Made by a program: the position numbers and the translations under genes. Source: Cetorhinus maximus (Eukaryota). Taken from it: a stretch of DNA of 64,000 nucleotides. Of this stretch, positions 1,726 to 64,000 are shown one piece after another. The notes under the pieces were generated by a model. That model was not told where the DNA came from, made no database searches, and worked only from the letters and a program-made list of their open reading frames with translations. How positions within the stretch are numbered: the stretch's first letter is position 1; every line of letters begins with the position of its first letter. The DNA lies in the NCBI RefSeq assembly GCF_964194155.1, contig NC_135902.1:51956001-52020000 (forward strand). The letters are read 5' to 3'.

Positions 1726-3015
1726 TGTTATGAATATCTAATTCATGGTTCGTGTGTTTTAGAATATAACTTTTAGTTTTAGGAATTAAAATGTAGAAAA
1801 TGGGATAAATGCAATTGAAGCAAACTTAGAGTCTATTACACTTAAAAGGTTGAGGCCATGCTGACTCAAAAGGTGAACAGCTAGAAAGGTAAGAACATAA
1901 ACAGAAGGTGGGGTTACTTAGCTAAAGAGCCGGAGACATGGTGTCTGCAATGCTTGCAAGAACAAGGGCAGTCCAGAGTGATGTTTTTGTTTTGGGAGGT
2001 AGAGCTAAATTACTTTAAAAACATTCAGTAAACCCTGAAATGTTGTAAGCCCATTTACTTTATCAGGTCAAAGAAGTAATTGTAAATGAGGGATAATTAA
2101 TCTAAAGGTTAGTTTGAGGACAGCCTAGAGCAGGCTACATCATCATATGGGTGGAGCTTAGGGAAGTTATCTGGTTTCAATTTATCTGGGTGCTTGCTGA
2201 GACATTTAGTTGCAGTTTGGATCTCGTGCAGTTTGCAGCCCACTAAGAGATAGCTGAAGTAAATGGTAGTTAGCTGGGCCTGCGCTGTAGGCAGAATAAA
2301 AACTAACTTTAGTATTGATGGTGTGGAATGCAAGTGAGGATTAATCTCAGTTTGAATCTTTGTGATGGAACTGAAACTGGAAGATTGTCTAGTTTGAAAC
2401 TAGTGGGAGAATCTACAGTGGTCCCTACAGAGTCTTGTGAATAAAGAAATCAGCAAACAAATTGGTTTGGAAGTATTGAAAAGTAACCAGAACAAGGGAC
2501 TGAGGCATCCAGAGTCAAGAGAGGATAAATGAAAATTTTACCTCTGAGAATAGCTGGAGCTAAGAAGAATTCTCCAGAGGACTGTGGCTTACTTATGGGT
2601 GGTCCTTACAGAAGAGAATAACTTTAAGATTTAAGACCTGAAGAAGTCATATGGACTTGAAACGTTAACTTTGTTTCCCTCTCCACAGATGCTTTGCCAG
2701 ACCTGCTGAGTTTTTCCAGCATTTTCTGTTTTTATTTCAGTTTTCCAACATCCGCAGTATTTTGCTTTTATTATAAGTTTGATGTGTCTTATGAGAGAAT
2801 GGAAGGAAGTAAGAAGTAAATCTGAGTGCTTAACATACATAGTTATAAGCTATCATGTTAACTTACTCATATTTACTTTGTTTAATTTGTTCCATATACA
2901 ATAAAGTTTGTGTTTCATTAAAAAGAAAGTGAAATCTTGTGTATTAGTACTATTGGTTAAAATGAGGTATTTAGATTTCTCTTTAAATGTTAATGGTCCT
3001 TAACCAGATCTAACA
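1726..3015 (+). mobile_element. Solo LTR with 4-bp target site duplication
   Basis: TGTTA...TAACA termini; ACTT on both flanks (1722-1725, 3016-3019); AATAAA near 2900. Confidence 0.75.
2635..2772 (+). repeat. Penelope-type terminal repeat, family A, with hammerhead-like core, inserted in the solo LTR
   Basis: CTGAAGA-agtc-atatg-gact-t-GAAA-cgttaact followed by the conserved ctctccacagatgct...tttgcttttatt tail. Confidence 0.7.
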
Positions 3016-7199: not shown

Positions 7200-7655
7200 T
7201 TTTTGGAGAAGCAGTTAATCTGCAGTAGGACATTTGGCCCTGAAAGCCTACTCCGCCATTCAATAAGATCACAGCCGATCTTCCACCTCAACTCCAACTT
7301 CCCACACAATCTTCATATTCCTTAATTACTTAGTACCCCAAAATCTATCAACCTCTGTCTTGAATATACTCAACAACCAAGCATCCACAGGTCCCTGCCT
7401 GGGGTAAAGAATTACAAAGATTCACAACATTTTGAGTGAAGAAGTTTCTCCTCATCTCAGTTGTAAATGGTTGTCCCCTTATTTTGTGATTGTGGTACTG
7501 TGTTCTAGATTCCCCAGCCTGGGGAAATATTTCTTCAGTATCTACCCTGCCAAGCCCCTTAAGAATTTATATGTTTCAATTAGATCCCCTCTCATCCTTC
7601 TATACTCCAGAGAGTATAGGCCTAGTCTAATCAATCTCTCCTCAGAGGACAATCC
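7200..7655 (-). mobile_element. CR1 3' end fragment
   Basis: Reverse complement encodes EMRRNFFTQNVVNLCNSL and carries the CR1 3' UTR. Confidence 0.8.
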
Positions 7656-8205
7656 CAAGAACCAATCGAGAAATCACTTCACTTCATGAGGAATATGGAA
7701 GGAAAATAAAAGCACTTGAAATGAAACTGGAAAAAGTTAAAACAAAGGGAACTGAAATGCAGGATAAATTAAAGATGAAACTTTCTGAACAGGAGATTAA
7801 ATTAAAAGCAGAATTGAAAAAGCAGCAGAAGGAACTTGTTCAAAAGGAACAAATGTTCAATAAAAAGCTGGTGGAAATGTCACATGCAGGCTCTATGAGA
7901 ATTAATGAAACAGTGAGTCAGCTGGAATCTAATCACAATCAACAAAGGGAGAATTTTCCCCATATTGGGCAGGGAGTGCGGGCACTGGCGGGCACGGTCC
8001 CGATTTTGTGCGGGCGGGCCAATTAAGGCCCGCCCAGCGTGTTTGGTGACTCCCGGGGGCTGCGGGAGTGGGCGGGCGCAGGCAGAACGGCAATCGCTGC
8101 CAGGTCCAATGGTGACCCGGCGGCCTGTTTAAAGGCCAAGCTGCAGCCGCACCAAGACTGATGTACATAGCCAGAGGTTGGGGGCAAGGCAAATCATTAA
8201 GCGAC

Positions 8206-9749: not shown

Positions 9750-11055
9750 CTATCCAGACAGATGAGGTCTCCAGGACGGAGGATACATGCCAGGCCTGTG
9801 TTGCACATCCATATGTGCTGTGCTAGCTAACCCTTGGATTAGAGCGTCCCGGGTATCCCTGCCTCCCTGGAGCATGCCCGGGTCAGCCTGTGCCCCCTCA
9901 TTATTTCCCTGTGTGTGCTCAGCCTCGGACTCGCTGCTGGACTCATCGTACTCAGCCCCAGCCACTCCGACTACATCGTCTTCATCCACAGCGTCCCCCA
10001 CTTTGCAGAGCTAGATTGTGCAGAGTGCAGCATGCAACCGCTATAAGCGACACTCGATCTGGGGGGTACTGGAGTGCGACCCCGGAATGGTCCAGGCATC
10101 TGAAGCGCATTTTGAGAAGACCGATGGTTCTCTCCACCACAACCCTTGTGGAGGCGTAACTTCTATTATACTGCTGCTCAGCTTCTGTTCTTGGATGGCG
10201 GAGAGACGTCATGAGCCACTTTCTGAGGGGATAGCACTTGTCTCCCAGCAGCCATCCATCCAGCCTGGTTGGGGCACTGAAAAGCCCTGGCACCTGGGAG
10301 TGTCTGAGGATGTAGGTGTCGTGGGAGCTGCCTGGGTACCTTGCGCATACTTGCAGGATCTGCATCCTGTGAACACACACTATCTGCACGTTCATGGAGT
10401 GGAAGCCCTTCCTGTTGACGAAGGCACCGGGCTCACCTGCTGGCGCCTTGATGGCCACATGTGTACAGTCTATAGCACCTTGGACACGGGGGAAGCCAGC
10501 AATGGCTGCGAAGCCTCTGGCTCACTCTGTCTGGCTGGCCTCGTCCTAGCGGTAGTGGATGAAGGTCAGTGCACGCCTGAACAGAGCGTTTGTCACCTGC
10601 TTGACACAAGTGTGGACATCCGATTGGGAGACACCAGAGAGATCACCCACTGAGCCCTGGAAAGAGCCAGAGGCATAGAAGTTGAGGGCAACTGTGACCT
10701 TTAGAGAGACAGGCATGGGGTGTCCGCCCACACAGTTAGCTGATATCTCTGGACCAATCATCTGACAGACAGTGTTGACTGTCTCCCTTGACAGACGGAG
10801 CCTCCTTTGGCACTGCACCTCAGGCATATTGAGGTAGGTGGTTCACGCTCTGTATATCCTGGCAACAGGACAGTGTCGTCTCCTGCGGCCCCTTGCACCT
10901 TGGACTATCCCTTGGCCCTGCACCCCTTGTGACTGCGCCTGTCCTCCCAAAGGTGGCTCCCCTGGGGGCTGAATGTGCACTCCTGGCCTCCTCCCCCTTC
11001 TAGCCCTCCCTTCCTCCTCAGATGAGGTGCCTCCAGTGGAGAGATTACCTCCCAT
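9750..11055 (-). pseudogene. Harbinger DDE transposase (HARBI1-like family), disrupted
   Basis: [61 protein letters not shown]; several stops, some from CGA>TGA. Confidence 0.93.
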
Positions 11056-12357
11056 TCCCAGGCTCAGGGAGGCTTGCTGAAACCTACAAATCCTCACTGA
11101 ACAGTGCTGACCTGAAGGTTATAAGTGCAGTCCAAGCAGTTGCTATGTGTTTGAGACTTCTCCACCTCACACACGCAACTTTCAATAACCTCTGAGCACT
11201 AACTGTTAAATGTCTGGATTCGCAAAAACAATGATCCCTCTTTCCCACCCGTGGATGAGGATCATTAAAGTTTCGGATAGCCGCAAGCCCATTGTGCCCG
11301 TGCGACGAGCACGGACACCTTAAAATCCAGGACTATTGGAGCCATAACTACCTTAATTGGCCTGGTAATGACTGGCGGCTGCACAACGGACACAGTCACG
11401 CGCCCGCCCAGCGAAATATCGCAATGGCGCGTGGTGACGTCGGGACGCGCGCCTGACATCATCGTGCGTCATTTTACGTGTCAGCGTGCAGGTCCCGCCC
11501 CCTGCACGCCAACGGAAAAATTCTGCCCCAAGAATTGAAAGCGCTAAAACAGAACCTCGAAGTCTCCAATAATGAAAAGGAAGAGCCATCCATGAAAATA
11601 ACTGAACTTACAGAGGAGGTTGCTTTACGAACAAGTAAAATACAGCAACTTCAATGGGAATTAGAGGAAGCATCGGTTCAGGTTGATACTTTGATAGAAA
11701 ACGAAACAGCCCTTAAAGCTAAATTGCAGACCTTTGAAGAGACTAACAGTCAAACTTTGCTGGAAAGAACAGAATTAGAAAACAGTCTAAGTGAAAGAAA
11801 CAGACGAGCAGAGCCAGGGTAAGGTTCATGAGCTTAGCAGTTTGTTGAAGGAAACTGAGGAATATGAAAAATAGAAAGAATGCAAGTGAAATCAAGAGCC
11901 AAGTAGAGCAATTAATTAATTATTTTAATGAAGCAAATGCAAAAATAAAGCTACAAACCAATGACTTTAACATAAGGTGTACTGATAAAATGAACATTCT
12001 TCATGAGTGTATTAAAGGCTACCAAAGTCAAACTGAGAAGGTACAAAAGGCAGTTGTGAAAGGGATCAACAGAGTTAGTGGACTAGAAATTAAATTTGAA
12101 GAGGTAGCAAATCAGAATGCCCTATTGAATGATCCAGTAGAGCATATGACACAACAACTGAAAAATGAACAAGAAAACTTTAAGGCATTGCAATCTGAAC
12201 TGCAAAATGTTACTGCAACACAAAACACACTGCAGCAAGAAAGGAAACATCACCGTCGAGTTTGGATGAGGAGGAGACATGCATCGAACAGTATAGGAAA
12301 AAATTGTCGGAAAGTGTAAGTGCGCATGAATCCATCACAGAACAGCTAAAGGGAAAA

Positions 12358-12582
12358 CTACCTATCACTGGCCATCTATCCAGCTCTCTTGTCCCAACCG
12401 CCCCGCTTAAACCAACTTATCTTTCACCCCTTTTCTATTTTTCCTTAGTTCTGTTGAAGAGTCATGCGGACTCGAAATGGTAACTGTGCTCCTCTCCGTA
12501 GATGCTGCCAGACCTGCTGAGTTTTTCCAGGTATTTTTGTTTTTGTTTTCGATTTCCAGCATCCGCAGTTTTTTGCTTCTAT
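12358..12582 (+). repeat. Penelope-type repeat, family A (hammerhead core mutated to CTGTTGA)
   Basis: agtt-CTGTTGA-agagtc-atgcg-gactc-GAAA-tggtaact plus conserved tail; interrupts the GOLGA4 fragment. Confidence 0.7.
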
Positions 12583-12974
12583 CTCAGTTATCTGCAAGCA
12601 TTGAAACTGTTTCTAAAGAGAAAGTTTCAGCCCCTGAGCAAGCGGACCAGTATAAGAACAAGTTAACAGAATGGAAGAAAAAAAATGGAATCAAAATTAG
12701 TGCAGCATAACAACAAAATGAAGGAACGTGAATCAAAATTTGAGACTTCTAGTAAAGAGAATAAAAAGAAGGGTGGCCAATTATCAAAATTGACAGCAGA
12801 GGCAAGGAGCAAAAACACAAAGAAAACTGAGTTAAATCCAGTAGCAATGATGTGGAACAGGGCAAAAGGAAAATTTAAGAAAAAAAAGAGCAAAATCCAA
12901 AAGCAAGGAAAGGGATAGAAGTAGGAGCAAAGGTGAAAGGAACAGAGATATAGAACAAAAAAAAAGTGATGATT

Positions 12975-16454: not shown

Positions 16455-16790
16455 TAGCCTCCACTAAAACTGCCTATTTTCATTTCTGAAACCTTGCCTG
16501 CCTCCACACCTTACCTCATTCATGCCCTCAACATCTTCAGGCTCAATTATTACAATGTACATTACATAAATTACAGCACCCTCTCCAGACATACTCCTCC
16601 TCTAGTCAGAACAGTTCTCTTCTGACCCTGGGATACTTTTAAGCTTTGTATTTTGTTAACACTATTCTCTCCTGCAAATGGCTATCCTTATGATCTTGCC
16701 TTCAGCCAACTTCCTTTGCTCTTCTCTCATTGGTGCTACTTCTGTGAGGTATGTTATTTTAAAATACTATATAGATGCAAATAGTGTTAA
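16455..16790 (+). mobile_element. Degenerate L2-like LINE 3' fragment
   Basis: TKTAYFH...LIHA...RLNYYN remnant and a tatatagatgcaa tail. Confidence 0.45.
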
Positions 16791-16807
16791 ACAGTTGTTT
16801 GGTAGTC

Positions 16808-17015
16808 AGAACTTGAGTATTGCTGAAAAAAAAGATTTGCTATTGAAGGTTTTCGTCTTGCAGTCATCAGGACAGCTCACAAGATAAACCAATAGTAAAG
16901 GAAACAACAATTTATACTGCATGAGAAGAGAGTGCTGATTGGTTGGAAAGTGAGCTATGATTGGTAGAGGCTTTGCCCTGGAGAATGCAACACAGAACAG
17001 TTAATTCCCAGGCTT
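16808..17015 (-). repeat. Penelope terminal repeat, family B, with hammerhead-like core
   Basis: Minus strand tgtc-CTGATGA-ctgcaagac-GAAA-accttc; homologous to both ends of 24238-25324. Confidence 0.7.
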
Positions 17016-17019
17016 TTAC

Positions 17020-18855
17020 ATAAAAACATAGAAAATAGGAGCAGGAGTAGGTTATTTGGCCCCTTGCTCAGCCATTCAATATGATCGTGGCTGATCCTCT
17101 TATCTCAACACCGTTCTCCCTGCGCTCTCCCCGTACCCCTTGATGCCTTTAGAGTCCGGAAATCTATCTATTTCCTTCTTAAATATATTCAGTGACTTGG
17201 CCGCCACAGCCTTTTGTGGTAGAGAATTCCATAGGTTCACCACCCTCTGAATGAAGAAGTTTCTCCTCATCTCGGTCCTAAACAGTCTACCCTGCATCCT
17301 GAGACTGTGACCCCTTGTTCTAGACCTCCCCAGGCAGAGGAAATATCATCCCTGCATCCAGTCTGTCCATCCTTGTCAAAATTTTATATGTTTTAATGAG
17401 ATCTCCTCTCATTCTTCTAAACTCCAGTGAATATAGGCCTAGTTGGCCTAATACTCCTCATATGACAATCCTGCCATCTCAGGAATCAGTCTGGTGAACC
17501 TTCGCTGTACTCCATCTATGGCAAGTATATCCTTTATTAGGTAAGATCAAAACTGAACACAATACTCCAAGTGTGGTCTCACCAAGGTCCTGTACAGCTG
17601 CACTAAGAAATCCTTGCTCCTGTGCTTAAGCATTCTCGCAATGAAGGCCAATATACCATTTGCCTTCTTAACTGCTTGCTGCACCCGCATGCTTGCTTTC
17701 AGTGATTGGTGTACAAGGTCACCCAGGTCCCTTTGTACATTAACATTTCCCAATCTATCACCATTTAAATAATGCTCCACCATTCTGTTTTTCCTACCAA
17801 AGTGGATAACTTCACACTTATCTACGTTCTACTGCATCTGCCATGTATTTGCCCACTCACTCAAGCTGTCTAAATCACCTTGAAGCCTCTTAACACCCTC
17901 CTCATCGCTCACATTCCCACCATGTTTCATGTCGTCAGCAAACTTGGAAACATTACATTTGGTTCCCTTATCCAAATCATTGATATATTGTGAATAGCTG
18001 GAGCCCAAGCATTGATCCCTGCAGTACCCCAGTAATCACCGCCCGACACTCCGAAAAAGACCCATTTATTCCTACTCTCTGTTTCCTGTCTGCTAACCAA
18101 TATTACCCCCAATCCCATGTGCTTTAATTTTACACATTAACCTTTTATGAGGCACTTTATCAAAAGCTTTCTGAAAATCCAAATACACCACATCCACGGG
18201 TTCTCCCTTATCTATTCTTCAAGTTACGTTCTCAAAAAACTCCAGTGGGTTTGTGAAACATGATTTCCCGTTCATAAATCCATGTTGACTTTGTCTAATC
18301 CCGTTGGTATTTTCTAAGTATCCTGTTATCACATCCTTTATAATAGACTCCAGCATTTTCCCTACTACTGATGTTAAGCTAACCGGTCTGTAATTCGCTG
18401 TTTTCTCCCTCCCTCCTTTTTTAAATAGTGGGGTTACATTTGTCACCCTCCAATCTGCCGGGACTGCCCCAGAATCTACAGAATTTTGGAAGATGGCAAC
18501 CAGTGCATCCAATATTTCCATGGCCACCTCCTTTAGTACCCTAGGGTGCTGGGCCCTGGGGATTTATCAGCTTTCAGTCCCATTAATTTCTCCAGCACTA
18601 TTGTTTTAGTAATACTAATTTCCTTCAATTCCTCCTCCTAACTAGACCCGTGGTTCCCTAGTATTTCTGGGAAGTTATTTGTGCCTTCCTCCTTGAAGGC
18701 AGAACTAAAGTAGTTGTTTAATTGCTCTGCCAGTCCCTTATTCTCTATTATAAATTCTCCCATTTCGGACTATAAGGGACCTACATTTGTCTTCCCTAAT
18801 CTTTTTCTTTTTACATACTTGTAGAAGCTTTTACAGTCTGCTTTTATGTTCCTTT
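17020..18855 (-). mobile_element. CR1 LINE, 5'-truncated (RT to 3' end)
   Basis: DWRVTNVTPLFKKG...NYRPVSLTSVVGKMLE, QHGF, KFADD, LVRPHLEYCVQF. Confidence 0.93.
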
Positions 18856-19049: not shown

Positions 19050-19190
19050 GGCTGAAGAAGAGTCATACCGACTCGAAACTTTAACTCTGTTTCTCTCTCC
19101 ACGGATGCTGCCAGACCTGCTGAGTTTTTCCAGCACTTTCTGTTTTCATTTCAGATTTCGAGTTTCCACAGCATTTTGCTTTTATTTTGA
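19050..19190 (+). repeat. Penelope-type repeat, family A, with hammerhead core
   Basis: CTGAAGA-a-gagtc-atacc-gactc-GAAA-ctttaact. Confidence 0.7.
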
Positions 19191-23831: not shown

Positions 23832-25597
23832 GGATTCAAAATTCCATGGGGTGCCCAATGTACTCCCACCCTAACTTGGAGGAGACAAAATGTGCTCGGA
23901 CTCGAATATGCCATATCTTGGCCATACTCGTAAATTTCTTGTGGTCAGTTTGAGGGTGAAACCTTCACACATCCCTTAGAAGGCCACTGATGTGGAATGG
24001 GCAGAGCCAAAGGTGGGTCTTCCATCAATGCGAATTGCCATATTCTCACCCTAATAGAATCACGTGGATGGTTGGAGGTCAATATATCAAAGAAAGACAG
24101 AAGTGGACTACATTCAGGGGGAGAGTCAAACTGGGGTTCTGGTCCAGACCCCCAAAAATTCCAAAATAATTTTAAAAATGTATTTCAATGCAGCCCTCTT
24201 ATAAATGGTATATGGAAAAAACATTAAAAAATTAATTGAGTACTGCTGAAAAAGAGACTTTTTTGTTAAAGCTTTTCACTTGCACTCATCAGGATAATTC
24301 ACAAGAATACCAAAAATTTATACAGTGTGAGAAGAGAGTGCTGATTGGTTGGCAAGTGGAATCTGATTGATAGAGGTGTTGCCATGGAGAATGCATCGGT
24401 TGATAGTGACTTAACTGCCAAGCACTATTTGAAATTTAAATCAGGCAGCTCGACTTTGATTGGTCAAGGCATTGCCCTGAGGAATGAACCAGTGAATGGC
24501 TGTCACTTATTTTGTTTAGCTGAAACAGGTGCATGTCCAAGTTCTCTCTGTCTGCAAAAAACAGGCCCCTGTGTATTAATGTATGTAGCTTCCAGTACAA
24601 ACAACTGAAGGGATGCTGTTTGATACGATCCACCAGTCTTTGGGATGTACGGCCTACATACCTAGCATCACACTGCCACTGAAATTCATATATCGCATTA
24701 ATCATTTGTGTGACAGGCAAAACATCTTTTTGGCTTGACGGCAGCTTCCTGATAGTAGTAAATACCGCTCTATTGCTATTGCATAGTAGCAGGGTGAAAC
24801 AGCTGGCTTCACCTGCTGCTCATATTTTTGAGATACTTTGCCCTTCCAGGGTAATCTGAAGTAGACTGGGCACTTTTTAGGGCCAAAAGTAGCAGCCTTA
24901 GACCCGTTCATGAGTTTGCATGATATACAGCGTGAATTAATCTGATCAGAGTAGCCATTATCTTGCAGGATTGCCTTTGATGCACCCGATTTTGGCATCA
25001 TACTTGCATGGTGAGCAAATGGCTGAGGCCCTATTTAAAGGTTGCAGATAAAGCCAATCTTATTGCGCGTGGAACTGTAAGAATCCCAACAAGTATATTG
25101 ACCAGTATCAAATGTGTCATGTGTCAAATGAGAACATGGACACAGCATTGCTATCTGTATGCAAGTTCTGTATGGTCTTCCACTTGCCAGCCAATCAGCA
25201 CTCTCATCTAATATAGTATAAATTGTTGTTCCCTTTATATCTGGTATTCTTGTGATAGTCCTCTGAGTGCAAGACGGAAAGCTTTGACAAAGTTGTATCT
25301 TTTTTCAGCAATACTCAAGTTCTGCAAAAACATAAATTACGTTACAAGAGGAGCCGCTGGAGAATGTTGTGTTTTTCAGGAAAAAAACTCACTCTCCCTC
25401 CCAGAACGGACAAGTCATGTCTTTGGAGCATGACAAACACCTAAGATGTGCCCAAATGGTGCAGATGCTAGCCAGCTCCATGTAAATTAGATGAGGACCC
25501 CCCCCCACTAATCACACATACTCCAGCCGGGTCCATAGTAGACAGCAGCAGCAGGTATTATCAGATCAGGAAAGCAGTCCATGGAATTTTGGGACCA
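23832..25597. mobile_element. MITE (about 18-bp TIRs) hosting a Penelope insertion
   Basis: ggattcaaaattccatgg ... ccatggaattttgggacc inverted termini. Confidence 0.55.
24238..25324 (-). mobile_element. Penelope-like retroelement, 5'-truncated, with inverted terminal repeats
   Basis: ILQDNGYSDQI, CPVYFRLPWKG, AIYEFQWQCDARYVGRTSQRLVDRIKQH (GIY-YIG); 24238-24365 is the inverted counterpart of 25175-25324. Confidence 0.88.
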
Positions 25598-28655: not shown

Positions 28656-29444
28656 TCTAGTTTCCGAGTGCAAGAGTGGTGGTCTTCCAGTTAAAAGCAA
28701 AACAAATGTTGTGTAACCTGCATCTGAAAGTATGATCATTACAGCATGTCTGCAGTACCATGGAAACATTCAATTTTGAATTGATCCATAGTCTTTCCAG
28801 ATCTTCTTCTTCTTCTTCATTGCAAAGGAATAGGGTGGGTGAAGCATTATGATGATGGCGGATCATCCACTACCTCCAGTGTGATGCCAGCACCAAACAC
28901 ATCTTTACCTCCAATTCTCTTTCATCATTCAGAGTAGTCCATTATTAATTTTTTTCAAAAATATACTTTATTCATAAAATTTTTAAAAGCACATTACATA
29001 ACAGTTCAAATTGGTGCTTCTAAGTGCAATATCATATAGCATATGACACTGAGGTGCCTCAATAAACTTGAAATTACAGGGTATATTTACAATATACAAT
29101 TCAACTATACAGTCCGAGGGGTTTTATGGGATACATAGTTGGTGGCTTTTCCTCAATGAGCCTTTGTGATCTAAGCTTTAGTGCGTCCCTCAGCATATAG
29201 TCCTTTGACTTTGAAACGTGTCACTCTGCAACATGTGATCATCTACAGTGCATTGCACTGGAAGACCAGAAAGTTTCAGGCAGACCAAACAAGTTTCACC
29301 AAGTTGATGGTTCTTCAGCAGCAGTCAATTTTATGAACTCAGTGTTCATCCCTGGGAACAGCCCATAGAGCACAGAGCCTGTGTTATGCAGCTGCTCAGA
29401 ATGAACTACAACAAAAACCACTGCAAATAGTCGTTTGGTAGTAC

Positions 29445-29612
29445 AGGACTTGTGTATTGCTGAAAGAAGAGACATTTTATGAAGTTTTTTGTCTTGCATT
29501 CATCAGATCAATTCACAAGAATACCAATGTAAGGGAAACAACAAACTAATACTGTATGAGTGCAAGATGAAAATATTCAACAAAAAAATCTCTTTTTCAG
29601 CAATACTCAAAA
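29445..29612. repeat. Inverted pair of family B Penelope repeats inserted in Tx1
   Basis: tattgctgaaagaagagac... mirrored by ...ctctttttcagcaatac; degenerate hammerhead cores on both strands. Confidence 0.65.
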
Positions 29613-30869: not shown

Positions 30870-31272
30870 GAGCATCTATGGAGAGAGATACAGAGTTAAT
30901 GTTTCGAGTCCATATGACTCTTCTTCAGAGCTAAAGAGAAGTAGAAATGTGATAGATTTTATTCTGTTTAAGAGGGGATGGAGCAAGTGAAGCAAGACAG
31001 AAGGTTAGGGATAGGTGGGAGCTAAGGAGAGATTGACAAAGATGTTATAGACGCAAGACAAAGGGAGTGGGCTTCACTGGAACATTGCACACATGTCCCT
31101 GACCTTCTATCTTGCTCCATCCCCTCTTAACAGTGTAAAATCCATCGCATTTATACTTCTCTTTAGCTCTAAAGAAGAGTCATACCGACTCGAAATGTTA
31201 ACTCTGTTTCTCTCTTCATAGATACTGACATACCTGCTCAATTTTTCTAGCATTTTCTCTCTTTATTTCAGC
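30870..31272. repeat. Head-to-head inverted pair of family A Penelope repeats
   Basis: 30871-31010 is the reverse complement of about 31095-31227; hammerhead cores at 30894-30932 (-) and 31165-31203 (+, CTAAAGA). Confidence 0.75.
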
Positions 31273-32638
31273 TCCCAAAGAATATAGCCTTGATCCTGTG
31301 GTGCTCATCAGTCTGAAAACTGACAGCACATTCAAGCAGATGCTGACTTTGTCCATACAAATGGGAGGCTTTGACTTGAGTGCCTCTGCTACCCTGGATT
31401 CTCACCCCTCTTATGCCTACATCCTTCCCGATGGACTCGGCCAAATGTTTGTTACAGCAAACAAATAAGACAGAGGAGAGGAGACAGCTTGACTCCTGAT
31501 TTAATCAGAAAGCTTTCAGATTCCTACTCATCGATTAAAACTGCACTACTGATGTTTTCGTAGGGAAGGTAGATCTAATTGCTGATTCCCTCCACAAATC
31601 CAATTTTGGAGGACACATTCATCATGTAGATGTGCAGTACTCTGTCAAAGGCCTTCTCCTGGTCCAAGTGGATGAGGCAGGTGTCCACCCACTCTGTCCC
31701 GCACAGAGGCGATCCTATTCCTGAATAGCACGAGTCTATCAGAGATCTGTACGGTGCAGATCCAAACAGGGTTGATCACCAACATCAGAGCAGACTTGGC
31801 CTGATTCTCAATGAACTTGGACAGAATTCTGTAGTCCATGTGAAATGGGCTGCCAATTTCTGTTTTCCTCCCTCTTCTCCTTGTGCTTGTAAACGAGGGC
31901 GATGATATCTTTCCTCAAGTTCTGACATGCTGCTGGCAGGAAGCATACTCTTGTACAAATCCAGCAGGTCTAGACCAATCTAGTACCACACAGAGTTAAA
32001 TACAACCAATCTGGTATATCATCACTTCCAGGAGTTTTATTCATCTCAAAGGACCTGATGGCCTTTCTCAGCTCGTCCAGATTCTCCCATGTACTGTACT
32101 CTCAAGACCTCTGTGATAGAAGATAGGAGGGACTGGGAGGCTGTGATGTCAGTGGGCTTTACATCAGACAGTCTGGCATAAAAGGATTTGCTGATCCTTA
32201 GTATGCCAGGCTGCAATGACATTATCAAGCCATCTTCTTCCTTCAGGCTGCTAATCGCAGAGCTCTACATACCTTTTCGAAGAAGAAATGCAAGTACACC
32301 TCATCCTGTTCCACAAAATAGGCCGTAAGCCAGAAGATGATCTTGGAGGACTCCACTGCAAAGAGTGAGGCCTGATGGCTCTTCCCCTCTTAGAGATCAT
32401 CCTTGACATTGACGCCCATCGATTGAAATAGGGCCAGATTCTGCATGTTTTTGTGGAGTCAGGATATTTCCCTATATCATTGTCTAGCCTCTTGAATATC
32501 TTTTGCGGTCAAAGAACCTCTTGATGTTCACCTTGATCACTGCCCGTCAGTGCGTCAGGTACTCAGATGTTTCGAACAAAAACAAAAATAGCTGGAAAAG
32601 CTCAGCAGGTCTGACAGCATCTATAGAGAGGAATACAG

Positions 32639-32677
32639 AGTTAATGTTTCGAGTCCATCTGACTCTTCATCAGAACT
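32639..32677 (-). ncRNA. Minimal type I hammerhead ribozyme motif (best family A copy, within repeat 32575-32680)
   Basis: agtt-CTGATGA-a-gagtc-agatg-gactc-GAAA-ca-TT-aact: stem I agtt/aact, stem II gagtc/gactc, intact CUGAUGA/GAAA core. Confidence 0.7.
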
Positions 32678-34934: not shown

Positions 34935-35092
34935 TTCCATCACCCCTTCGGCACCCTTCACTTCTGCCTTCCAGTCTATCAGAGACCATTCCTCTTGTTC
35001 TTGCCTCTTCCCTTTTCCTGCTCTTGCACTTAACTAAACCCTGTTACATCAGTGACATTTTCCAGTTCTGATGAAGGGTCTCAGACCTGAAT
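34935..35092 (+). repeat. Family A Penelope repeat, truncated by a CR1 tail
   Basis: agtt-CTGATGA-a-gggtc-tca-gacct-GAA(T). Confidence 0.6.
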
Positions 35093-35384
35093 GGAATCAC
35101 AGAATCAAAGGATTGTTACAGTGCAGGAGGAGGCCATTTGGCCCATTGTGTCTGCAGCAGCTCTCTGAAAGAACAAGTTTACTTGGTGCCATTCTCCCAC
35201 CTGCAAACCCTGACATTCTTCCTCTTCAAATAACATCTAATTCACTTTTGAATGCCTCAATTGAACCTGCCTCCACCACATTCTCCACCACACTCAGGCA
35301 GTTCATTCCAGACCTTAAATATTCACTGCGTGAAAGAGTTTTTCTCATATCGCTTTTGCTTTGTCTGCAAATTACTTTAAATCT
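35093..35384 (-). mobile_element. CR1 3' end fragment
   Basis: Reverse complement carries the conserved CR1 terminal segment and (gattct)-type tail. Confidence 0.7.
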
Positions 35385-35582
35385 GGCAGCATCTGTGGAG
35401 AGAGAAACAGAGTTAACGTTTCAAATCTATATGACTTCTTCAGAGCTGAAGAGTCGTCATATGGACCCAAAACGTTAACTTTGTTTCTCTCTCTAGAGAT
35501 GCTGCCGGACCTGCTGAGTTTTTCCAGCATTTTGTGTTTTTATTTCAGATTTCCAGCATCCACAGTATTTTCCTTTTATTAC
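35385..35582. repeat. Inverted pair of family A repeats fused at the hammerhead cores
   Basis: agttaacgtttc...tcttcag-ag-ctgaaga...aaacgttaact; both copies share the central agct. Confidence 0.75.
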
Positions 35583-39770: not shown

Positions 39771-40660
39771 CTGGAAAGTAATAAGAAGTCATATTAACTA
39801 TGATTTGAAATAAATTATTTATGCTGAAAGCTGTCATTCTGATCCTTCGAACAATTCACGTGAAATGAGTAGTCATTTTATCCACTTGACATAAGCAGTT
39901 ACCTTAAGATTAGAAGTCTGATAAGAATCCATTGTCTAATGTGCTCACTATTACAAAATCCTCAATTACTTTTGTAATATTAACAAGGAACACTTAGTAC
40001 ATTCATATGACGGACCCCAATAAGCTTTTTTCATGCAGATGTTATCTTTTGTTTTAAGCTGGTTAATCGAGGGAATTCTTATCTGGAATCCCTTGTGGAG
40101 AATGTCAGAAAATTTGGGAAGTGAGACCTATCATTGCACACTAATTGGAAAATGCTCTCAAAGGGTAATTTTGTCTTACATCATCCAATGCTCCTCTATT
40201 ACAGGATCTTCCTCAGAGCTTCTCCTGCTGCACTATTATAACTTTGTAATTCAGCAGAAACTCTGTTTACATGCACAAATGCTGTTTTCCACCAAACTTT
40301 TCCCAGGAGTTACTGTGGCAAAGCGGGAGAAACCCCAAGGATAATCCTGGTGAAATAGTTTTCAGAAGACGATGAGGACAACAATGATAACATTCCGACC
40401 CCATGTAATGCCGGCAGTTCTGCTCCTCTCATTTTCACTCCCTTCATCACCGGTCTTCTCTGTCCAATGCACCAACTCAGAGACTGTGACAATGAGAGCT
40501 CAAGCTCAGAACACAGCACCAGCTGAGTCATACAGCATGAGGAAGTCGGAGGAGTGGCTAAAGACTCAAATCTCACTGATACAAATGTGGAAAGAAAGAT
40601 TTCCCATGAACATCACCCAAGTCTGCACGATGTGCAGTAGATGGCATGGGTCACAGCCTC

Positions 40661-42738
40661 ATATTCATCCCTAGGAAGAAGAAGCATACTAAAGGGAGGA
40701 TGAAGCAACCATGGCTGACAAGGGAAGTCAGGGACAGCATAAAAGCTAAAGAGAAAGCATACCATGCAACGAAGAGCAGTGGGAAACCAGGGGATTGGGA
40801 AGCCTACAAAGACCAACAGAGGACAACTAAAAAAGAAATAAGGAGGGAGAAGATTAAATATGAGGGTAAACTAGCCAGTAATATAAAAGAAGATTGCAAG
40901 AGTTTTTTTAGATATATAAAGGGTAAGAGAGAGGCAAAAGTGGACAATGGGCCTCTGGAAAATGACGCTGGAGAAGTAGTAGTGGGGAACAAAGAAATGG
41001 CGGAGGAACTGAATAGGTACTTTGCGTCAGTCTTCACGGTGGAAGACACGAGTAACATCCCCAAAGTTCAAGAGGGTTGGGGGGCAGAGGTGAGTATGGT
41101 GGCCATTCCCAAGGAGAAGGTGCTAGGAAAACTGAAAGGTCGGAAGGTGGATAAATCACCTGGACCAGATGGATTACACCCCAGAGTTCTGAAGGAGATA
41201 GCTGAAGAGATAGTGGAGGCGTTAGTGGTGATCTTTCAGGAATCACTGGAGTCAGGGAGGGTTCCAGAGGACTGGAAAATCGCTAATGTAACCCCCTGTT
41301 TAAAAAGGGAGTGAGGCAAAAGACGGGAAATTACAGGCCGATTAGCCTGACCTCGGTCGTTGGTAAGATTTTAGAGTCCATTATTAAGGATGAGATTTCA
41401 GAATACTTGGAAGTGCATGGTAAAATAGGGCAAAGTCAACATGGTTTCATCAAGGGGAGGTCATGCCTGACAAATCTGTTAGAATTCTTTGAGGAGGTAA
41501 CGAGTAGGTTAGACAAAGGAGAGCCAATGGATGTTATCTACTTGGACTTCCAGAAGGTCTTTGACAAGGTGCCGCACAGGAGGCTGCTCAGTAAGATAAG
41601 AGCCCATGGTGTTAGAGGCAAGGTACTAGCATGGATAGAAGATTGGCTGTCTGGCAGGAGGCAGAGAGTGGGGATAAGGGGGTCCTTCTCAGGATGGCGG
41701 CCGGTGACTAGTGGAGTTCCGCAGGGGTCAGTGTTGGGACCACAACTTTTCACTTTATACATTAATGATCTAGATGAAGGAACTGAGGGCATCCTGGCTA
41801 AGTTTGCAGATGATACAAAGATAGGTGGAGGGACAGGTAGTATTGAGGAGGCGGGGAGGCTGCAGAAGGATTTGGACAGGTTAGGAGAATGGGCAAAGAA
41901 GTGGCAGATGGAATATAACATGGGGAAGTGTGAGGTCATGCACTTTGGTAGGAAGAATAGAGGCATAGACTATTTTCTAAATGGGGAGAGAATTCAGAAA
42001 TCTGGAGTGCAAAGGGACTTGGGAGTCCTAGTCTAGGATTCTCTTAAGATTAACTTGCAGGTTGAGTCGGTAGTTAGGAAGGCAAATGCAATGTTGGCAT
42101 TTATTTCGAGAGGACTAGAATATAAAAGCAGGGATGTGCTGCTGAGGTTTTATAAGGCTCTGGTCAGACCACATTTAGAATATTGTGAGCAATTTTGGGC
42201 CCCGTATCTCAGGAAGGATATTCTGGTCCTGGAAAGGGTCCAGAGGAGGTTCACGAGAATGATCCCAGGAATGAAAGGCTTAACATATGAGGAACGTTTG
42301 AGGACTCTGGTCTATATTCGATGGAGTTTAGAAGGATGAGGAGGGATCTGATTGAAACTTACAGAATACTGAAAGGCCTGGATAGAGTGGACGTGGGGAA
42401 GATGTTTCCATTAGTAGGAGAGACTAGGACCCGAGGGCACAGCCTCAGAGTAAAGGGAAGACCTTTTAGAACAGAGATGAGGAGAAACTTCTATAGCCAG
42501 AGAGTGGTGAATCTATGGAATTCATTGCCACAGAAGGCTGTGGAGGCCAGGTCATTGAGTGTATTTAAGACCAAGATAGATAGGTTCTTGATTGGTAAGG
42601 GGATCAAAGGTTACGGGGAGAAGGCAGGAGAATGGGGTGAGAAACTTATCAACCATGATTGAATGGCGGAGCCGACTCGATGGGCCGAATGGCCTAATTT
42701 CTGCTCCTATATCTTATGGCCTTATGGTCTTATATTCA
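40661..42738 (+). mobile_element. Relatively young 5'-truncated CR1 LINE (RT to 3' end)
   Basis: Long ORFs 40646-41314 and 41311-42036 with YLDFQK, SGVPQGSVLGP, KFADDTK; (CTTATGG)n tail; candidate TSD ATATTCA (40661-40667, 42732-42738). Confidence 0.95.
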
Positions 42739-50297: not shown

Positions 50298-50640
50298 GAC
50301 AAAAACAGAATTACCTGGAAAAACTCAGCAGGTCTGGCAGCATTGGCGGAGAAGAAAAGAGTTGACATTTCGAGTCCTCATGACCCTTCAATGGAAAGCA
50401 ATGAAGGTGAACAAGGCAGAAGAGACAGGCGGAAATCCTGTCGGAGAGCAGAGCAATACTTCTTCAAGGTAGGCATTTCTTGAAGAGGAGTGGCAGTCAA
50501 TTAAACACAGAGATAAAAACAAAAAGCTACTGCGGATGCTGGAAATCCAAAAGAAAAACAGAATTACCTGGAAAAACTCAGCAGGTCTGGCAGCATCGGC
50601 GGAGAAGAAAAGAGTTGATGTTTCGAGTCCTCATGACAGC
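50298..50640 (-). repeat. Two tandem family A-related Penelope repeats with truncated hammerhead cores
   Basis: aaaaacagaattacctggaaaaactcagcaggtctggcagcat...tttcgagtcctcatgac at about 50300 and 50555. Confidence 0.7.
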
Positions 50641-57249: not shown

Positions 57250-59300
57250 GAAAGTCGCAATCCCGCCACCTCTGGAATGCAATGTAATTTTCGATAGGAG
57301 GACAGGAGGGGAGTATCTGGAATCCACTATACCTCCAATTAAGTGCCTATTAAGTTTGTTGTTGAGCCGATTAGAAGGGCTTAGTGGGCCAGTCTCAGAT
57401 TTTCTATTGGCAGGCATAGATAAAGGCATTGTCTGGGGCATGTCAGGGTGCACCTGGCATGCACAGCATGGAGACATCAGGGCTGATGGAGGCACTGGTC
57501 AATTAATTTATTAAGATTGACAGAGTTGCCATTGGTGGTGCTGAGAGATTGTTACTTCTCACCAATGAGAGGTTGGAGTCCTGAGAGGGGCACAGGTTAC
57601 TGACCTGGGCGTCAGTGGCTGGTAGAGAAACCTCTGCTGAACATAGTGCCAATTGAGGGAGTGTAGATGAGAACAGGGTACTCTGACATAGGGCAGAGTA
57701 GTAACAAGGACCCTCAGCAGAAGCATCGTCCTGCTCAGGGCAATATCAGAGGACCACACAGGGGGCCTGCAAGGAGAAGAAGGTGGTACCTAAGACATTA
57801 GGTGTAGCATCTACGAGTCAGCTACATGCAAATGACAGAGCACTAGCACTGTAGGAGGCTGTGTCTTTTCAAATAGCTGGGTCTGTCTCAATGTCCAAGA
57901 CCAATGGGAATCACCTACCCACAGCCGTCAAGGTGACAATCACCCTGAATTTTTCTGCATCAGGCTTGTTCCAGGAATCAGTCATGGACCTGGTGGATTC
58001 TCGCAGTCAGCGTCTATCATTCCATCAGGCAGGTCATGGTTGCCCGATTGTAGAGGGTGGAGGAATATATCCACTTTGAGACATACCAGCCAGCAGAGGC
58101 ACAGAGGGCTTAACAGCTTTGCCATCATCGATGGAATTCTCCAGGTTCAGGGGGTTATTGATTGTACCCACCTAGTCATCAAGACACCAACAGGCCAGTC
58201 AGATTCCTCAACAGAAATGGCTTCACTCATTAATGTTCAGCTTGTGTGCGACTACAAGAAGCACACCTTGCAGGTGTATGCCTGGTTCCCAGGCAGCTGT
58301 GAGAGTCCCTGTATTCAGGCCAATATCCCGATTCCATTGGTGGCTACTAGGAGATAAGGGTTATTCTGTGAGGAGATGGGTCCTGACACCCGTCTAGCAC
58401 CCAGACATTGAAGTGGAAAGGCACTATAACCAAAGTCATCTACTTACATGAACCTGCACCAAGCAGATCATCAGTATCTTGAAAATGTGCTTCCATTGCC
58501 TTAACCAGTCAGATGGTGCCCTCTAGTATACTGTCCATCTTGTTGTCTGCTGTTCACTGAACAACATGACTAGATAAAGAGGCCTGGAACTGGTTGAGAA
58601 GGGAATAATACACCACTCTTTCTTGCAGAAATACAGGGTTTGGAGGGATAGGAGCCCAGGGCATATGCATTGGAGGGAGGCCAGCAACTCCATGCCAGGT
58701 GTCACAACAATCAGCAGGTTGATCTAGCAACCCTTCATCCGAGTGATTCCCAGGCCTATGTCAGATGACTCCCATCCTGAACTTGAGCCACTGGGACAAG
58801 TTTTCCAATGAGCACACACTTAGATAACCCCATTGCTACCCATAGATGTACAGTATGGGGTCTCCACTACCACCATACCCACATCACAGAGGGGCACAGG
58901 CAACAAGAACATGGCCCTGCATCAGTGCAGGGGCAGCATCAATTGCAAAGCCTTGCAGCAGGGATGGCTGCTGAGTCGAAGGAGCCAACAAGTCAAGGGA
59001 TAACAAATGTACCACACGGGGTTGCCCTCTCATCGGCCTCTTCGACCACCTCAGCTGTTTCATGGCGATCTTGAACACTGAACAAGACCATTGGCTGAGA
59101 CATAGCTTGCATCCACTCCTCACATCTCTGTGTCATCAGTGACACTGAGCATTCCATGCAACAGAGGGTCTCACTTTGTATGTCACTAACTCAGAATGGT
59201 GCTGCATATAGATCTGCAAAAGGGAGGCAACTCTCTCTCGAGGAAGGAGCTCATGTGCTTCAACCCCTGTGACATGACAGGCACATGCACTGCATTGCCC
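57250..59300 (+). mobile_element. Old Harbinger: degenerate transposase on +, possible Myb C-terminal remnant on -
   Basis: VKVTITLNFSASG, QVQGVIDCTHLVI, NVQLVCD, WLLGDKGY. Confidence 0.75.
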
Positions 59301-61579: not shown

Positions 61580-64000
61580 ATCAGAAGATGCAGTTTGATT
61601 GATGGACATACACTTGAAAGGTGACAGGTGGGAAGACACCATCAAAAGATGCATAAGCAAATTGGATATTGTGAAGTCTGTGTGGTCTTGGAGTGCCTGT
61701 GAGAAGAATTGATAAGAACTGAGATTCGTTTTGGGAAAGGACTGACCTCAGGTGGTTAGTGTCAGTGTGGGAGATGGATGGGGCACCCAGTATCCCAGTT
61801 AGGTGCCTGTCCAACAATGGCAAGCAGGGAGCTCCAGAGCAACCTCACATTGGTGCATGAGCTGCCTGTCGTCTTTGTGGGCTCCTCTCAGGGCACTCTG
61901 GATGACGGCAGCAGCACCTCCGCCCCTCTGCCAGTGACTGTGGCATCTGATGAGGCTGCAGCGACTGGGGAGATGCCAGCCGTGGCACTGGCCACTCCCT
62001 CCCAGGCAGGGCCAGCTTAGGCTCCACTGGCCAGAGGACGACCACCAAGGTCATCAAGGCCACCAAGGCAGCAGAGTTAGCAGCCTGTCTCCAATGCCGG
62101 TGTCAGCGAGGGGGTAGCACCAAGATGTAGCACTCACAAGCGTAAATTAAAGGCACCATGAGCACAAGAGGTGCAGGTCACAGGTGATTTTATGATCATT
62201 TATGTTTACTTTATGTATACTGGTCTGGGGTTGATGACCAGAAATATTTATGTAAATATTATTGAACTGTCTGAATGAGATAAATTGTGTTTTTGTCATC
62301 ATGGCCTGAGTATGCTTCACCTTTTTATTTCATTTGTGTGGGGAACACCAGTATGTAATGCTGGATGTAGGTGGCTCTGAACTTTATTGCACTGAGTATT
62401 CTGTGTTCAAATGAAAGGGTCCTTTCAGACATCCAGGATGGAGGCAGCAGTGGTTGGAGCTGATCTTTGGTAGCCTAGCTGAAGGAGCGTTGGGTCAAGG
62501 CATCCCTGGTGTACCAAGGTCTGGCTCCATGCCTCAGCATTCTCCTCAGTGCTCATCTTCAGACTCACTACTGGATTCATCATCTGTGGCCTGTGCAGCT
62601 GCATCAAGGTCCTCTGCCTCCAGTGGGTCCCTTCTTGTCAGTGCCAGATTGTGGAGAGCGCAGCATGCAACCACTATCAGTGACACCCGCTCTGGGGGCT
62701 ATTGTAGTGCTCCTCCTGTACGGTCCAGGCATCAGAAGCGCATCTTCAGCAGACCTATGGTCCTCTCTATCACTGCCCTTGTGGAGGCATGACTTGTATT
62801 GTAACACTTCTCTACCCCTGTTCTTGGGTGGTGGAGAGGCGTCATGAGCCACCTCTTCAATGGGTAGCCCTTGTCAACCAGCAGCCATCCATCCAGTCAG
62901 GCTGGAGCACTGAAGAGCCTCAGCACCTGGGGGTGTCTCAGGATGTAAGCATCATGGGTGCTGCCAGGATGCCTTGCACTGACTTGCATAATCTGCATCC
63001 TGTGGTCACACACTTATCTGCAGGTTCATGGAGTGGAATCCTTTCCTGTTGACGTTGGCACCCAGCTGACCTGCTGTCGCCTTGATGGCCACATGTGTGC
63101 AGTTGATTGCACCCTGGACGCAGGGGAACCCAGCAATCACTGCAAAGCCTCTGGCTCACTCAGCCTCATCCGTACAGTAAAGAATAAAGGTCAGGACCTG
63201 CCTGAACAGAGCTCCTATCACGAACTTGATGCAACTGTGGACAGCTGATTGGGAGACTCCACACAGATCCCCACTGATCCCTGGAAAGAGCTGGAGACAT
63301 AGAAGTTGAGGGCCACTGTGGCCTTCAGAGCCACTGGCATGGGAGTGTCAGAACTGATCTCAGGCCCAATCATCTGGCAAATGAAGGTCATGGTCTCCTT
63401 TGTGAGGTGGAGCCTCCTTCGGCATTGCACCTCAGACATACTGAAATAGCTGCATCGCTGCCTGTAAACCCTGGCAGCAGGATAGTGGCGTCTTCTGTGG
63501 CTCCTTCCGCCTTGGACTTCCTGCTGGCCCTATGCCCCTTGTGTCTGCGCCTCTCCTCCCACAGATCCCGCCCCTGGAAGCTGCATTGGGACACCTGGCC
63601 TCCACTCCCTTCTGCCTCTCTCTTGCTCCTCAGAGGAGGTGCCTCCAGCGGAGACCACAATCTCCATTACCAGGGTAATGGAAGGCTGTCTGATACCTGG
63701 AAGGGTCCACGGTCCAAATCCTCTGAGGGTCTTGCAAACGCCAATAAGTCCTGAAATGAAACCTGGAAATGCTAAGAATGAAGCCCAGACAGAGACCAAT
63801 AAGCAGCCAACGATCTAAAAAACTCCTCACTACTTACCGGCAATGCTGCTGACCCTTTTTATCCCACCCATGGATGAGATTTCTGAAAATGTCGGCTGGC
63901 CGCCTGCCCATTTTGCCTGAGCAACGAGCACAAAAATCGCACGGGCAAGGAAAAAAAATTGCCATCAATAGGACTGTTAAGGGTCTTAAGTGGCCTCTTA
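61580..64000. mobile_element. Harbinger of the 7946-11528 family, running off the window end; transposase on - (about 62420-63680), Myb C-terminus on +
   Basis: VALNFYVSSSFQGSVG, degenerate IDCTH motif (NCTH), LLKMRF*CLDR; GEMPAVALATPSQAGP matches 9302-9360. Confidence 0.85.

What the first reader, a model, noticed from the sequence alone, without database searches (positions are those of the whole stretch)
32639..32677. Dispersed family of minimal type I hammerhead ribozyme motifs (family A)
Seen: a 150-200 bp repeat occurs about 11 times (2638+, 12447+, 19052+, 30894-, 31165+, 32639-, 35064+, 35411-, 35446+, 50360-, 50612-). Its consensus is agtt-CTGA(T/A)GA-a-gagtc-N5-gactc-GAAA-cgT-T-aact. 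The stem II arms stay paired while the loop varies (atatg, atacc, agatg, atgcg, tca), stem I pairs as agtt/aact, and stem III is reduced to the palindrome AACGTT. Known: Penelope-like elements carry minimal type I hammerheads whose palindromic stem III works as a dimer. Inference: this abundant repeat is a ribozyme-bearing PLE terminal repeat, possibly mobilised alone like a retrozyme. Most copies here carry core or CpG mutations.
Basis: partly seen in the sequence, partly recalled or inferred. Interest (0 to 1): 0.7.

Follow-up and report, generated by a model that had tools for sequence, protein, structure and literature searches.

The report
Shark Penelope retrotransposon hammerhead ends
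These repeats are worn-down end pieces of a Penelope-type jumping gene in what is likely a shark genome, each carrying the small hammerhead RNA motif already known from such elements (predicted, not shown, to cut itself); the one unusual point is that the youngest branches of the family kept spreading after replacing a normally fixed core letter, which likely slows the cutting.

Summary
Observation confirmed: 10 of 11 listed copies are one family; 35064+ is a sister-family fragment. They are 5'-truncated ends (pseudo-LTR plus tail) of an autonomous Penelope-like retrotransposon with RT, a C-x4-C-x2-C linker and C-terminal GIY-YIG (Neptune/Nematis type), in a likely shark genome. The motif has 61,923 exact core matches genome-wide (control 0). 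No window copy is intact; 32639- keeps core and stems but has lost the dimer palindrome. The retrozyme idea is not supported: copies are truncation products, 21 of 21 head-to-head pairs show the two-site PLE tail, and the one tandem junction is unique. 0 of 30 young copies start at the cut site, so uncut RNA is the likely template. Covariation is weak (one two-sided change). The twist: along one lineage core A6 became U, then C; 75% of exact matches lack A6, the youngest subfamily (5,055 identical motifs, open ORF) has C6, while ten other core positions and both stems held. One insertion joins an 18S rRNA piece exactly at the cut site. The scan already noted this family, including the A6 change, on other pieces of this genome and in other genomes. 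Cleavage untested.

The parts
32575..32677 (-). Focus copy: 103-bp 5'-truncated PLE end, starting at the first base of stem I and ending at the short-tail site (+102 from C3); subfamily S2 (A6 U7). Hammerhead motif 32677-32639, predicted cut after 32643; core and both stems intact, stem III palindrome broken (G16.2>A)
2638..2779 (+). Copy starting at C3, long tail; 2-nt deletion before stem II, 5' arm of stem I missing
12360..12591 (+). Copy with 96 nt of upstream pLTR, long tail; U6 subfamily (S3); C15.2 and U16.1 mutated
19052..19189 (+). Copy starting at C3, long tail; core and stem II intact, 5' arm of stem I missing, G16.2>U
30871..31069 (-). Left arm of a head-to-head pair; 150 nt upstream pLTR; S1 subfamily; G16.2>A; ends at +61
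31071..31089 (-). 19-nt piece matching the endonuclease-coding part of the same element, at the junction of the pair
   Evidence: sequence compared by eye with L003
31096..31271 (+). Right arm of the pair; G5>A and C15.2>U; ends at +106
35060..35091 (+). Fragment of a sister-family hammerhead (stem II GGGUC/GACCU, loop UCA), cut after GAA by another repeat; not family A
35383..35453 (-). Left arm of a fold-back pair joined at the hammerhead front edge; 2-nt deletion, stem II decayed; ends at +66
35437..35579 (+). Right arm of the fold-back pair; G12>A; long tail
50390..50637 (-). Copy truncated inside the core (+10), GUC cut-site subfamily (S4/S5-like); tail continues into the ORF start (ATG at 50476, 28 codons)
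50299..50391 (-). Second copy joined directly behind the ORF start by an internal deletion, truncated at +3, short tail; junction unique in the genome
1290..1433 (+). Decayed GIY-YIG fragment of the same element type (tblastn E 6e-11, one stop)

Best explanation
The repeats are 5'-truncated end pieces (pseudo-LTR with a minimal type I hammerhead motif, plus tail) of an autonomous Penelope-like retrotransposon with a Neptune-type protein, likely copied by the element's own reverse transcriptase from RNA that the hammerhead had not cut. Shown: the motif lies about 400-450 nt behind the stop of an RT/GIY-YIG ORF and about 180 nt before the ORF start in tandem copies; 3' ends fall at +95-100 or +138-151; head-to-head pairs carry one end of each kind inside one 13-16 nt target duplication. 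Inferred, from the Anolis element (PMC11167929): the protein nicks both target strands and starts cDNA at two internal sites of the RNA, one per strand; synthesis usually stops early. The many copies that begin at the hammerhead's front edge likely come from running off the RNA's 5' end or stalling at the fold. The hammerhead likely cuts slowly, as a dimer through the ACGU palindrome and with protein help, to trim tandem transcripts; it is not needed for each insertion. Younger subfamilies replaced core A6 by U and then C while keeping the fold, which is predicted to slow cutting further. All ten window copies are decayed and likely inactive.
For: ORF link: 21 of 30 loci found with an RT-thumb piece have the motif ~1.2 kb downstream on the same strand; tail-to-ORF tandems in 8 of 30 loci found with the ORF's 5' part; L268 has a 645-codon open frame with RVT_1 (E 4e-7) and GIY-YIG (E 3e-4, just under the curated cut-off) and the C-x4-C-x2-C linker; nearest named homologues are shark and ray proteins at 62-69%. 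Ends: 62 of 68 young copies end at the two tail sites (31 each); 21 of 21 inverted pairs have one long and one short arm and 20 of 21 share a 7-18 nt flank word. Uncut template: 0 of 30 copies picked by sequence 3' of the cut site start there, 7 of 30 start at -11..+18; starts at the cut site 18 against 17 at a control position. Front-edge pile-up: 14 of 30 A6 copies and 7 of 10 window copies. A6 series: 15,734 A, 27,886 U, 18,303 C or G by subtraction, of 61,923; tree of the endonuclease region is a ladder ending in the C6 subfamily with end branches 0.0025-0.01 against 0.02-0.07 for S1; ten other core positions unchanged across five subfamilies against 12 of 33 other motif positions (Fisher p 0.023). 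A6C lowers Mg-dependent cleavage in other hammerheads (PMC7151607, PMC3088659).
Against: No cleavage assay and no raw RNA reads (only contigs). Core conservation is not significant against the flanks (0 of 10 against 17 of 90, p 0.14), so the fold may be kept for protein binding rather than catalysis. Covariation in the family is no higher than shuffles. Single motifs fold no better than shuffles (z -1.4 to +1.4), and in S2 and the focus copy the best fold mispairs the core. Only 3 of 17 tree branches are strongly supported, S4 looks older than S3 by divergence (0.067 against 0.039, n=5), and the root is a midpoint. No single full-length intact copy was seen; start and end of the ORF come from different loci. 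Neptune versus Nematis was not resolved by a tree.
Confidence: 0.86

Rival explanations
1. Short copies are a separate non-autonomous family (SINE-like or retrozyme-like) transcribed from its own start at the hammerhead front edge and mobilised by the PLE protein.
For: 5' ends pile up at -17..+18: 14 of 30, 7 of 30 and 7 of 10 in three sets. Non-LTR retrozymes derive from pLTRs and are reported in one cartilaginous fish (10.64898/2026.07.22.740005, parts 1-2 read).
Against: 5' ends are ragged, not fixed, and grade into copies longer than 1.5 kb; short and long copies occur in the same subfamilies; the window's only direct tandem is a unique deletion junction (1 match genome-wide); nearby pairs are mostly inverted, not tandem (listing). 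A genome-wide tandem-array scan could not be run.
Confidence: 0.07
2. The motif no longer acts as a ribozyme in the young subfamilies; the fold is kept as a binding or promoter element for the PLE protein, and A6 drifted once catalysis stopped mattering.
For: A6 changed twice and the family went on to make about 75% of exact matches; cleavage is dispensable for insertion in vitro in the Anolis element (PMC11167929); Naiad elements lack canonical hammerheads (PMC8557442); no excess of copies at the cut site.
Against: The other ten core positions, including G8 and G12, did not change; the cut triplet alternated only between GUU and GUC, both allowed; natural A6C hammerheads keep low activity (PMC3088659, PMC7151607); one young insertion has an rRNA piece joined exactly at the cut site. 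This rival differs from the best explanation only in the role of the motif, not in what the repeat is.
Confidence: 0.3
3. Chance hairpin in an ordinary SINE or LINE tail.
For: No Rfam hammerhead hit; folding z-scores are unremarkable; covariation is weak.
Against: All defining min-HHR features sit in order at the pLTR position of a PLE; descriptor hits 15 against 0-1 in controls.
Confidence: 0.01

Closest known systems
Minimal type I hammerheads (min-HHR) in pLTRs of metazoan PLEs, including fish Xena, Poseidon and Neptune (Cervera and De la Pena 2014, PMC4209133, parts 1-2 of 4 read; Lunse et al., not held, known only from passages of PMC6765202)
   Same: Core, extra nucleotide between 9 and 10.1, G10.1-C11.1, palindromic 15.2-16.2, short stem I, thousands of single copies, close pairs on opposite strands.
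   Different: Stem II is 5 bp (7-8 in Schistosoma); copy number is far higher (61,923 exact matches against about 4,000 and 9,000 in coelacanth and Xenopus, by a different method); most exact matches have U6 or C6, which a CUGANGA descriptor would miss.
Poseidon element PAc of Anolis carolinensis (Frangieh et al. 2024, PMC11167929, parts 1-2 of 4 read)
   Same: Hammerhead at the pLTR/ORF junction; two RT start sites defining a tail; both strands cut and extended; unprocessed RNA as the template.
   Different: Here the protein has the extra C-x4-C-x2-C linker absent from Penelope/Poseidon; the ORF starts about 180 nt behind the motif, not in stem II; the tail is about 45 nt.
Neptune/Nematis EN+ PLEs (Craig et al. 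2021, PMC8557442, Introduction and passages read)
   Same: RT then CX2-5CxxC linker then GIY-YIG with CCHH; partial tandems; inverted 5'-truncated partner; tail at one end only.
   Different: No microsatellite targeting seen in 21 pairs (flank words are mixed sequence).
Natural A6C hammerhead of phage Bcep176 (PMC3088659 passages; PMC7151607 part 1 of 4)
   Same: Same core change; low Mg-dependent activity, better with Mn.
   Different: A rare single phage motif with normal helices there; here a minimal dimer-type motif fixed in a lineage with thousands of near-identical copies.
Non-LTR retrozymes (PMC7229834 passages; 10.64898/2026.07.22.740005)
   Same: Type I hammerhead, pLTR ancestry.
   Different: Retrozymes are tandem non-coding units with mostly canonical hammerheads and circular RNAs; these are dispersed or inverted truncations of a coding element.

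Membership tests
PLE minimal type I hammerhead | Core CUGANGA...GAAA with A15.1-U16.1 and H17 | tested here: met
   Met in S1/S2 and the focus copy; position 6 is U or C in S3-S7, a variant
PLE minimal type I hammerhead | Stem II closed by G10.1-C11.1 with one extra nucleotide after A9 | tested here: met
   95.5% of stem II cells paired in 31 distinct rows with stem II left free in the search
PLE minimal type I hammerhead | No stem III; palindromic 15.1-16.1 for dimer pairing | tested here: met
   ACGU in all five subfamily examples; ACAU (broken) in the focus copy
PLE minimal type I hammerhead | Compensatory changes in stems | tested here: inconclusive
   One two-sided change (10.4/11.4 U-A>C-G in S6), A-U/G.U at 10.2, stem I grows from 4 to 6 bp in S6; not above shuffles
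PLE minimal type I hammerhead | Self-cleavage as a dimer | not testable with these tools
   No assay; runs found were contigs only; one rRNA chimera at the cut site
EN+ Penelope-like element | One ORF with RT and C-terminal GIY-YIG bearing CCHH | tested here: met
EN+ Penelope-like element | pLTR in partial tandems, inverted 5'-truncated partner, tail at one end | tested here: met
Neptune/Nematis clades | CX2-5CxxC linker between RT and EN | tested here: met
   C-x4-C-x2-C in L268 and other copies; definition from PMC8557442
Neptune clade | RT phylogeny with reference Neptune and Nematis elements | not tested
   No named reference PLE sequences were on hand
Penelope/Poseidon clade | Linker Zn-finger absent | tested here: not met
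   The linker is present
Non-LTR retrozyme | Tandem units, two or more with complete hammerheads, amplified as a unit | tested here: not met
   The window's only tandem has two core-truncated copies and a unique junction; not scanned genome-wide
Non-LTR retrozyme | Circular unit-length RNA | not testable with these tools
   No raw RNA reads
Rfam hammerhead families | Covariance-model match | tested here: not met
   No hammerhead family among 11 matches at E<=10; expected for motifs without stem III

The most novel reading that the evidence does not exclude
One shark retrotransposon lineage tuned its ribozyme down in two steps (A6 to U to C) while strengthening the fold, so that the motif cuts rarely or only when bound by the element's protein or Mn2+; it still cuts in the germ line, and the freed end can be joined to other RNA fragments such as rRNA and inserted as a chimera. 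The dated subfamilies are then a natural allelic series for why Penelope elements keep a hammerhead.
Probability: 0.3. Interest if true: 0.65.

Novelty: new variant of a known kind. Interest (0 to 1): 0.4.

Why it matters
The pairing of minimal hammerheads with Penelope ends has been known since 2014, so the window's copies are ordinary relics. The role of these hammerheads is stated to be unclear (PMC8557442), and the one biochemical study found cleavage dispensable for insertion (PMC11167929). A lineage whose most recent waves carry a non-standard core gives natural A6, U6 and C6 versions of one motif to compare directly. It also means descriptor searches fixed on CUGANGA miss about three quarters of the exact-pattern copies in this genome. 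The one-long-one-short rule in 21 of 21 pairs is genomic support for two-strand, two-site priming in a second PLE clade.

Tried and rejected
Rfam scan of the window: no hammerhead hit; the MIR8007 hit at 35377-35512 is just the fold-back pair. Poseidon, my first guess: rejected by the linker motif. L061 looked like a pLTR-ORF-pLTR unit but the upstream copy is a separate insertion about 340 bp away. The 50.3-50.6 kb tandem as an amplified mini-element: unique. Apparent 5' ends near +28 in the sample as cleavage products: at least three share an unrelated upstream repeat end and look like interruptions; not resolved. Excess of copies starting at the cut site: none (18 against 17; of the 18, nine are fold-backs through stem I homology, six other inversions, one a deletion, two plain). 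RNA evidence: 22 runs, all contigs, one on record as RNA; no splice joint or end pile-up could be read; absence proves nothing. PDB search of the ORF: 0 hits; NCBIfam 0. Monomer and dimer energy folding did not single out the hammerhead fold; the dimer fold is non-nested and was not scored whole. Papers: no report of U6/C6 cores in PLE hammerheads in searches, none on Neptune in sharks in one search, none on rRNA chimeras in one search; but Lunse et al. (PMC5785218) and Arkhipova et al. 2017 (PMC5850863) were not held and the supplements of PMC4209133 were not opened, and any of these may already show such variants.

Full report
1. Observation. Self-comparison and a profile search give ten family members in the window; the eleventh, 35064+, is a fragment of a sister family interrupted by another repeat. 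Positions below count from C3 of the core as 0; the predicted cut lies between +30 and +31. None of the ten copies is complete: five lack or have damaged stem I or the front of the core, one has G5>A, one G12>A, two have a 2-nt deletion before stem II, and the focus copy and 30894- have lost the dimer palindrome through G16.2>A (some copies have more than one defect). Rfam has no hammerhead hit here. A descriptor written after PMC4209133 finds 15 hits in 844 kb against 0 to 1 in controls. The window's genome has 3.99 Gb; exact patterns match 6,710 times and, with position 6-7 and stem II free, 61,923 times, controls 0. A sample of 78 10-kb stretches gave 67 profile hits, partial and sister-family hits included, so the total is likely a few hundred thousand and the window is about twice average.

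2. What carries it. Upstream of longer copies lies the end of an ORF with a GIY-YIG domain. Of 30 loci found with an RT-thumb piece, 21 have the motif about 1.2 kb downstream on the same strand. Of 30 loci found with the ORF's 5' part, 8 show motif and tail running straight into the ORF start, the partial tandem typical of PLEs. L268 has a 645-codon open frame; its 598-residue element part matches RVT_1 and, just under the cut-off, GIY-YIG. It has two cysteines inside the GIY-YIG motif and a C-x4-C-x2-C linker, which PMC8557442 gives for Neptune and Nematis and not for Penelope/Poseidon. The nearest named homologues are shark and ray proteins, so the host is likely an elasmobranch. The window shows the link itself: the 50637- copy runs into the first 28 codons of the ORF and then jumps to the next motif, a junction found once in the genome, and the 30.9-31.3 kb pair has a 19-nt endonuclease-coding piece at its centre.

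3. How the copies were made. In 68 copies of the youngest subfamily, 31 end at +95-100 and 31 at +138-151; five end earlier and one continues into the ORF. In 21 head-to-head pairs (12 of them chosen by me from the listing for being close and inverted, not for their tails) one arm is long and one short in all 21, and 20 share a 7-18 nt word in both flanks, mostly 13-15 nt. This fits the Anolis element, which cuts and extends both strands and starts cDNA at two internal sites that define the tail (PMC11167929); assigning one site to each strand is my inference. 5' ends range from beyond -1500 to +18. They pile up at the motif's front edge: 14 of 30 A6 copies at -16..0, 7 of 30 young copies at -11..+18, 7 of 10 window copies at -10..+10. 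None of the 30 young copies, which were picked only by sequence 3' of the cut, starts at +31. A genome-wide pattern for starts at the cut gave 18 hits, a control three bases further 17; nine of the 18 are fold-backs through the 6-nt stem I homology and cannot be read as cleavage products. So the template is likely uncut RNA. A TATA-like word lies 30-37 nt before C3 in S1 copies, which would put a transcription start at the pile-up; this is inferred, and RT stalling at the fold is not excluded.

4. The core change. Position 6 is A in 15,734, U in 27,886 and, by subtraction, C or G in 18,303 of the 61,923 matches. With the core left free, the first 100 listed matches (counted by eye) have A6 in 16, while C3, U4, G5, G8, A9, G12, A13, A14 and A15.1 deviate in 2, 1, 0, 4, 2, 8, 0, 0 and 2; a script count on 30 of them agrees. 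These patterns need intact CpGs and so favour young copies. Subfamilies form a ladder in a tree of the endonuclease region, from A6A7 through A6U7 and U6 to C6U7 and C6C7, with end branches falling from 0.02-0.07 to 0.0025-0.01 (20 copies, midpoint root, 3 of 17 branches strongly supported). The last subfamily has 5,055 identical 34-mers, an open ORF, a two-sided U-A to C-G change in stem II and a stem I of 6 bp instead of 4. Ten core positions did not change along the series against 12 of 33 other motif positions (p 0.023) but only 17 of 90 flank positions (p 0.14). Formal covariation is not above shuffles. A6C is known to cut Mg-dependent rates strongly while leaving activity, more with Mn2+ (PMC7151607, PMC3088659). 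In the window, 12447+ has U6 and the two 50-kb copies belong to the GUC group; the focus copy is an older A6 copy. I saw this series; one search then showed that the scan had noted it on other pieces of this genome (28 hammerhead notes), and that 108 notes in at least 18 genomes cover such elements. Those notes are not independent support.

5. A hint of cleavage. Following note e1-8661026 I checked the 18 cut-site loci: one, L332, holds about 90 nt of 18S rRNA joined in sense exactly at +31, with element tail behind it and a 16-nt duplication around both; none of 17 control loci has an rRNA match. A cut RNA end ligated to, or template-switched onto, an rRNA fragment would explain it; one event is weak evidence and chance truncation is possible.

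6. Comparison and verdict. It works like, and by every testable feature is, a PLE minimal hammerhead (PMC4209133) on a Neptune-type element; it is not a retrozyme. What was read: PMC4209133 and PMC11167929 parts 1-2 of 4; 10.64898/2026.07.22.740005 parts 1-2 of 5; PMC8557442 Introduction and passages; PMC7151607 part 1 of 4; passages of PMC3088659, PMC6765202, PMC7229834 and PMC6155905; no supplements. Lunse et al., the paper most likely to list core variants, was not held, so novelty of the U6/C6 series is uncertain. Hammerhead numbering is standard knowledge; subfamily labels S1-S7 are mine. The window's copies are ordinary relics; the family is a new variant of a known kind. Interest 0.4.

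Noticed in passing
window 16789-16989, 24236-24395, 25178-25324, 29425-29610 and ORF remnant 24436-24819 (-): A second PLE family with a different minimal hammerhead (very short stem II, palindrome AAGCUU); the 24.3-kb copy lies directly behind a decayed ORF end that looks GIY-YIG-like by eye (no Pfam GIY-YIG hit), and 29425-29610 is a fold-back pair.
   Followed up: partly
L332:1428-1620 (-), G000:C24 near 64,682,000: Chimeric insertion: 18S rRNA piece joined at the predicted cut site of a C6 copy inside one 16-nt target duplication.
   Followed up: partly
+80 from C3 in S2-S7 copies, e.g. window 50637- copy; L271: Younger subfamilies have a CAG/GTA donor-like site in the tail and a pyrimidine tract with AG just before the ORF's ATG, which would make a ~95-nt 5'-UTR intron as in Penelope; contigs showed no such joint.
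   Followed up: partly
L124, L128, L135, L138, L147, L161 (sampled stretches): Six decayed copies begin near +28 behind a similar AAAAT-rich repeat end, as if another element had inserted at the TTA of the cut site; three were recovered by pattern, no upstream halves found.
   Followed up: partly
L316, L317, L319, L321, L324, L325, L327, L328, L330: Nine fold-back insertions share one junction made through the 6-nt stem I homology, leaving a complete inverted motif facing the post-cut sequence.
   Followed up: partly
window 9915-11085, 62549-63698, 58145-58298: Harbinger-type transposase remnants (DDE_Tnp_4, E 8e-39).
   Followed up: no
window 40610-42726 and 17019-18548: LINE remnants with RVT_1 (E 3e-35); a related copy in L272 has a 584-codon open frame.
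   Followed up: no
window 7631-8026 and 11457-12319 (+): Open frames with coiled-coil character, possibly host exons; only weak Pfam hits for the one tested.
   Followed up: no
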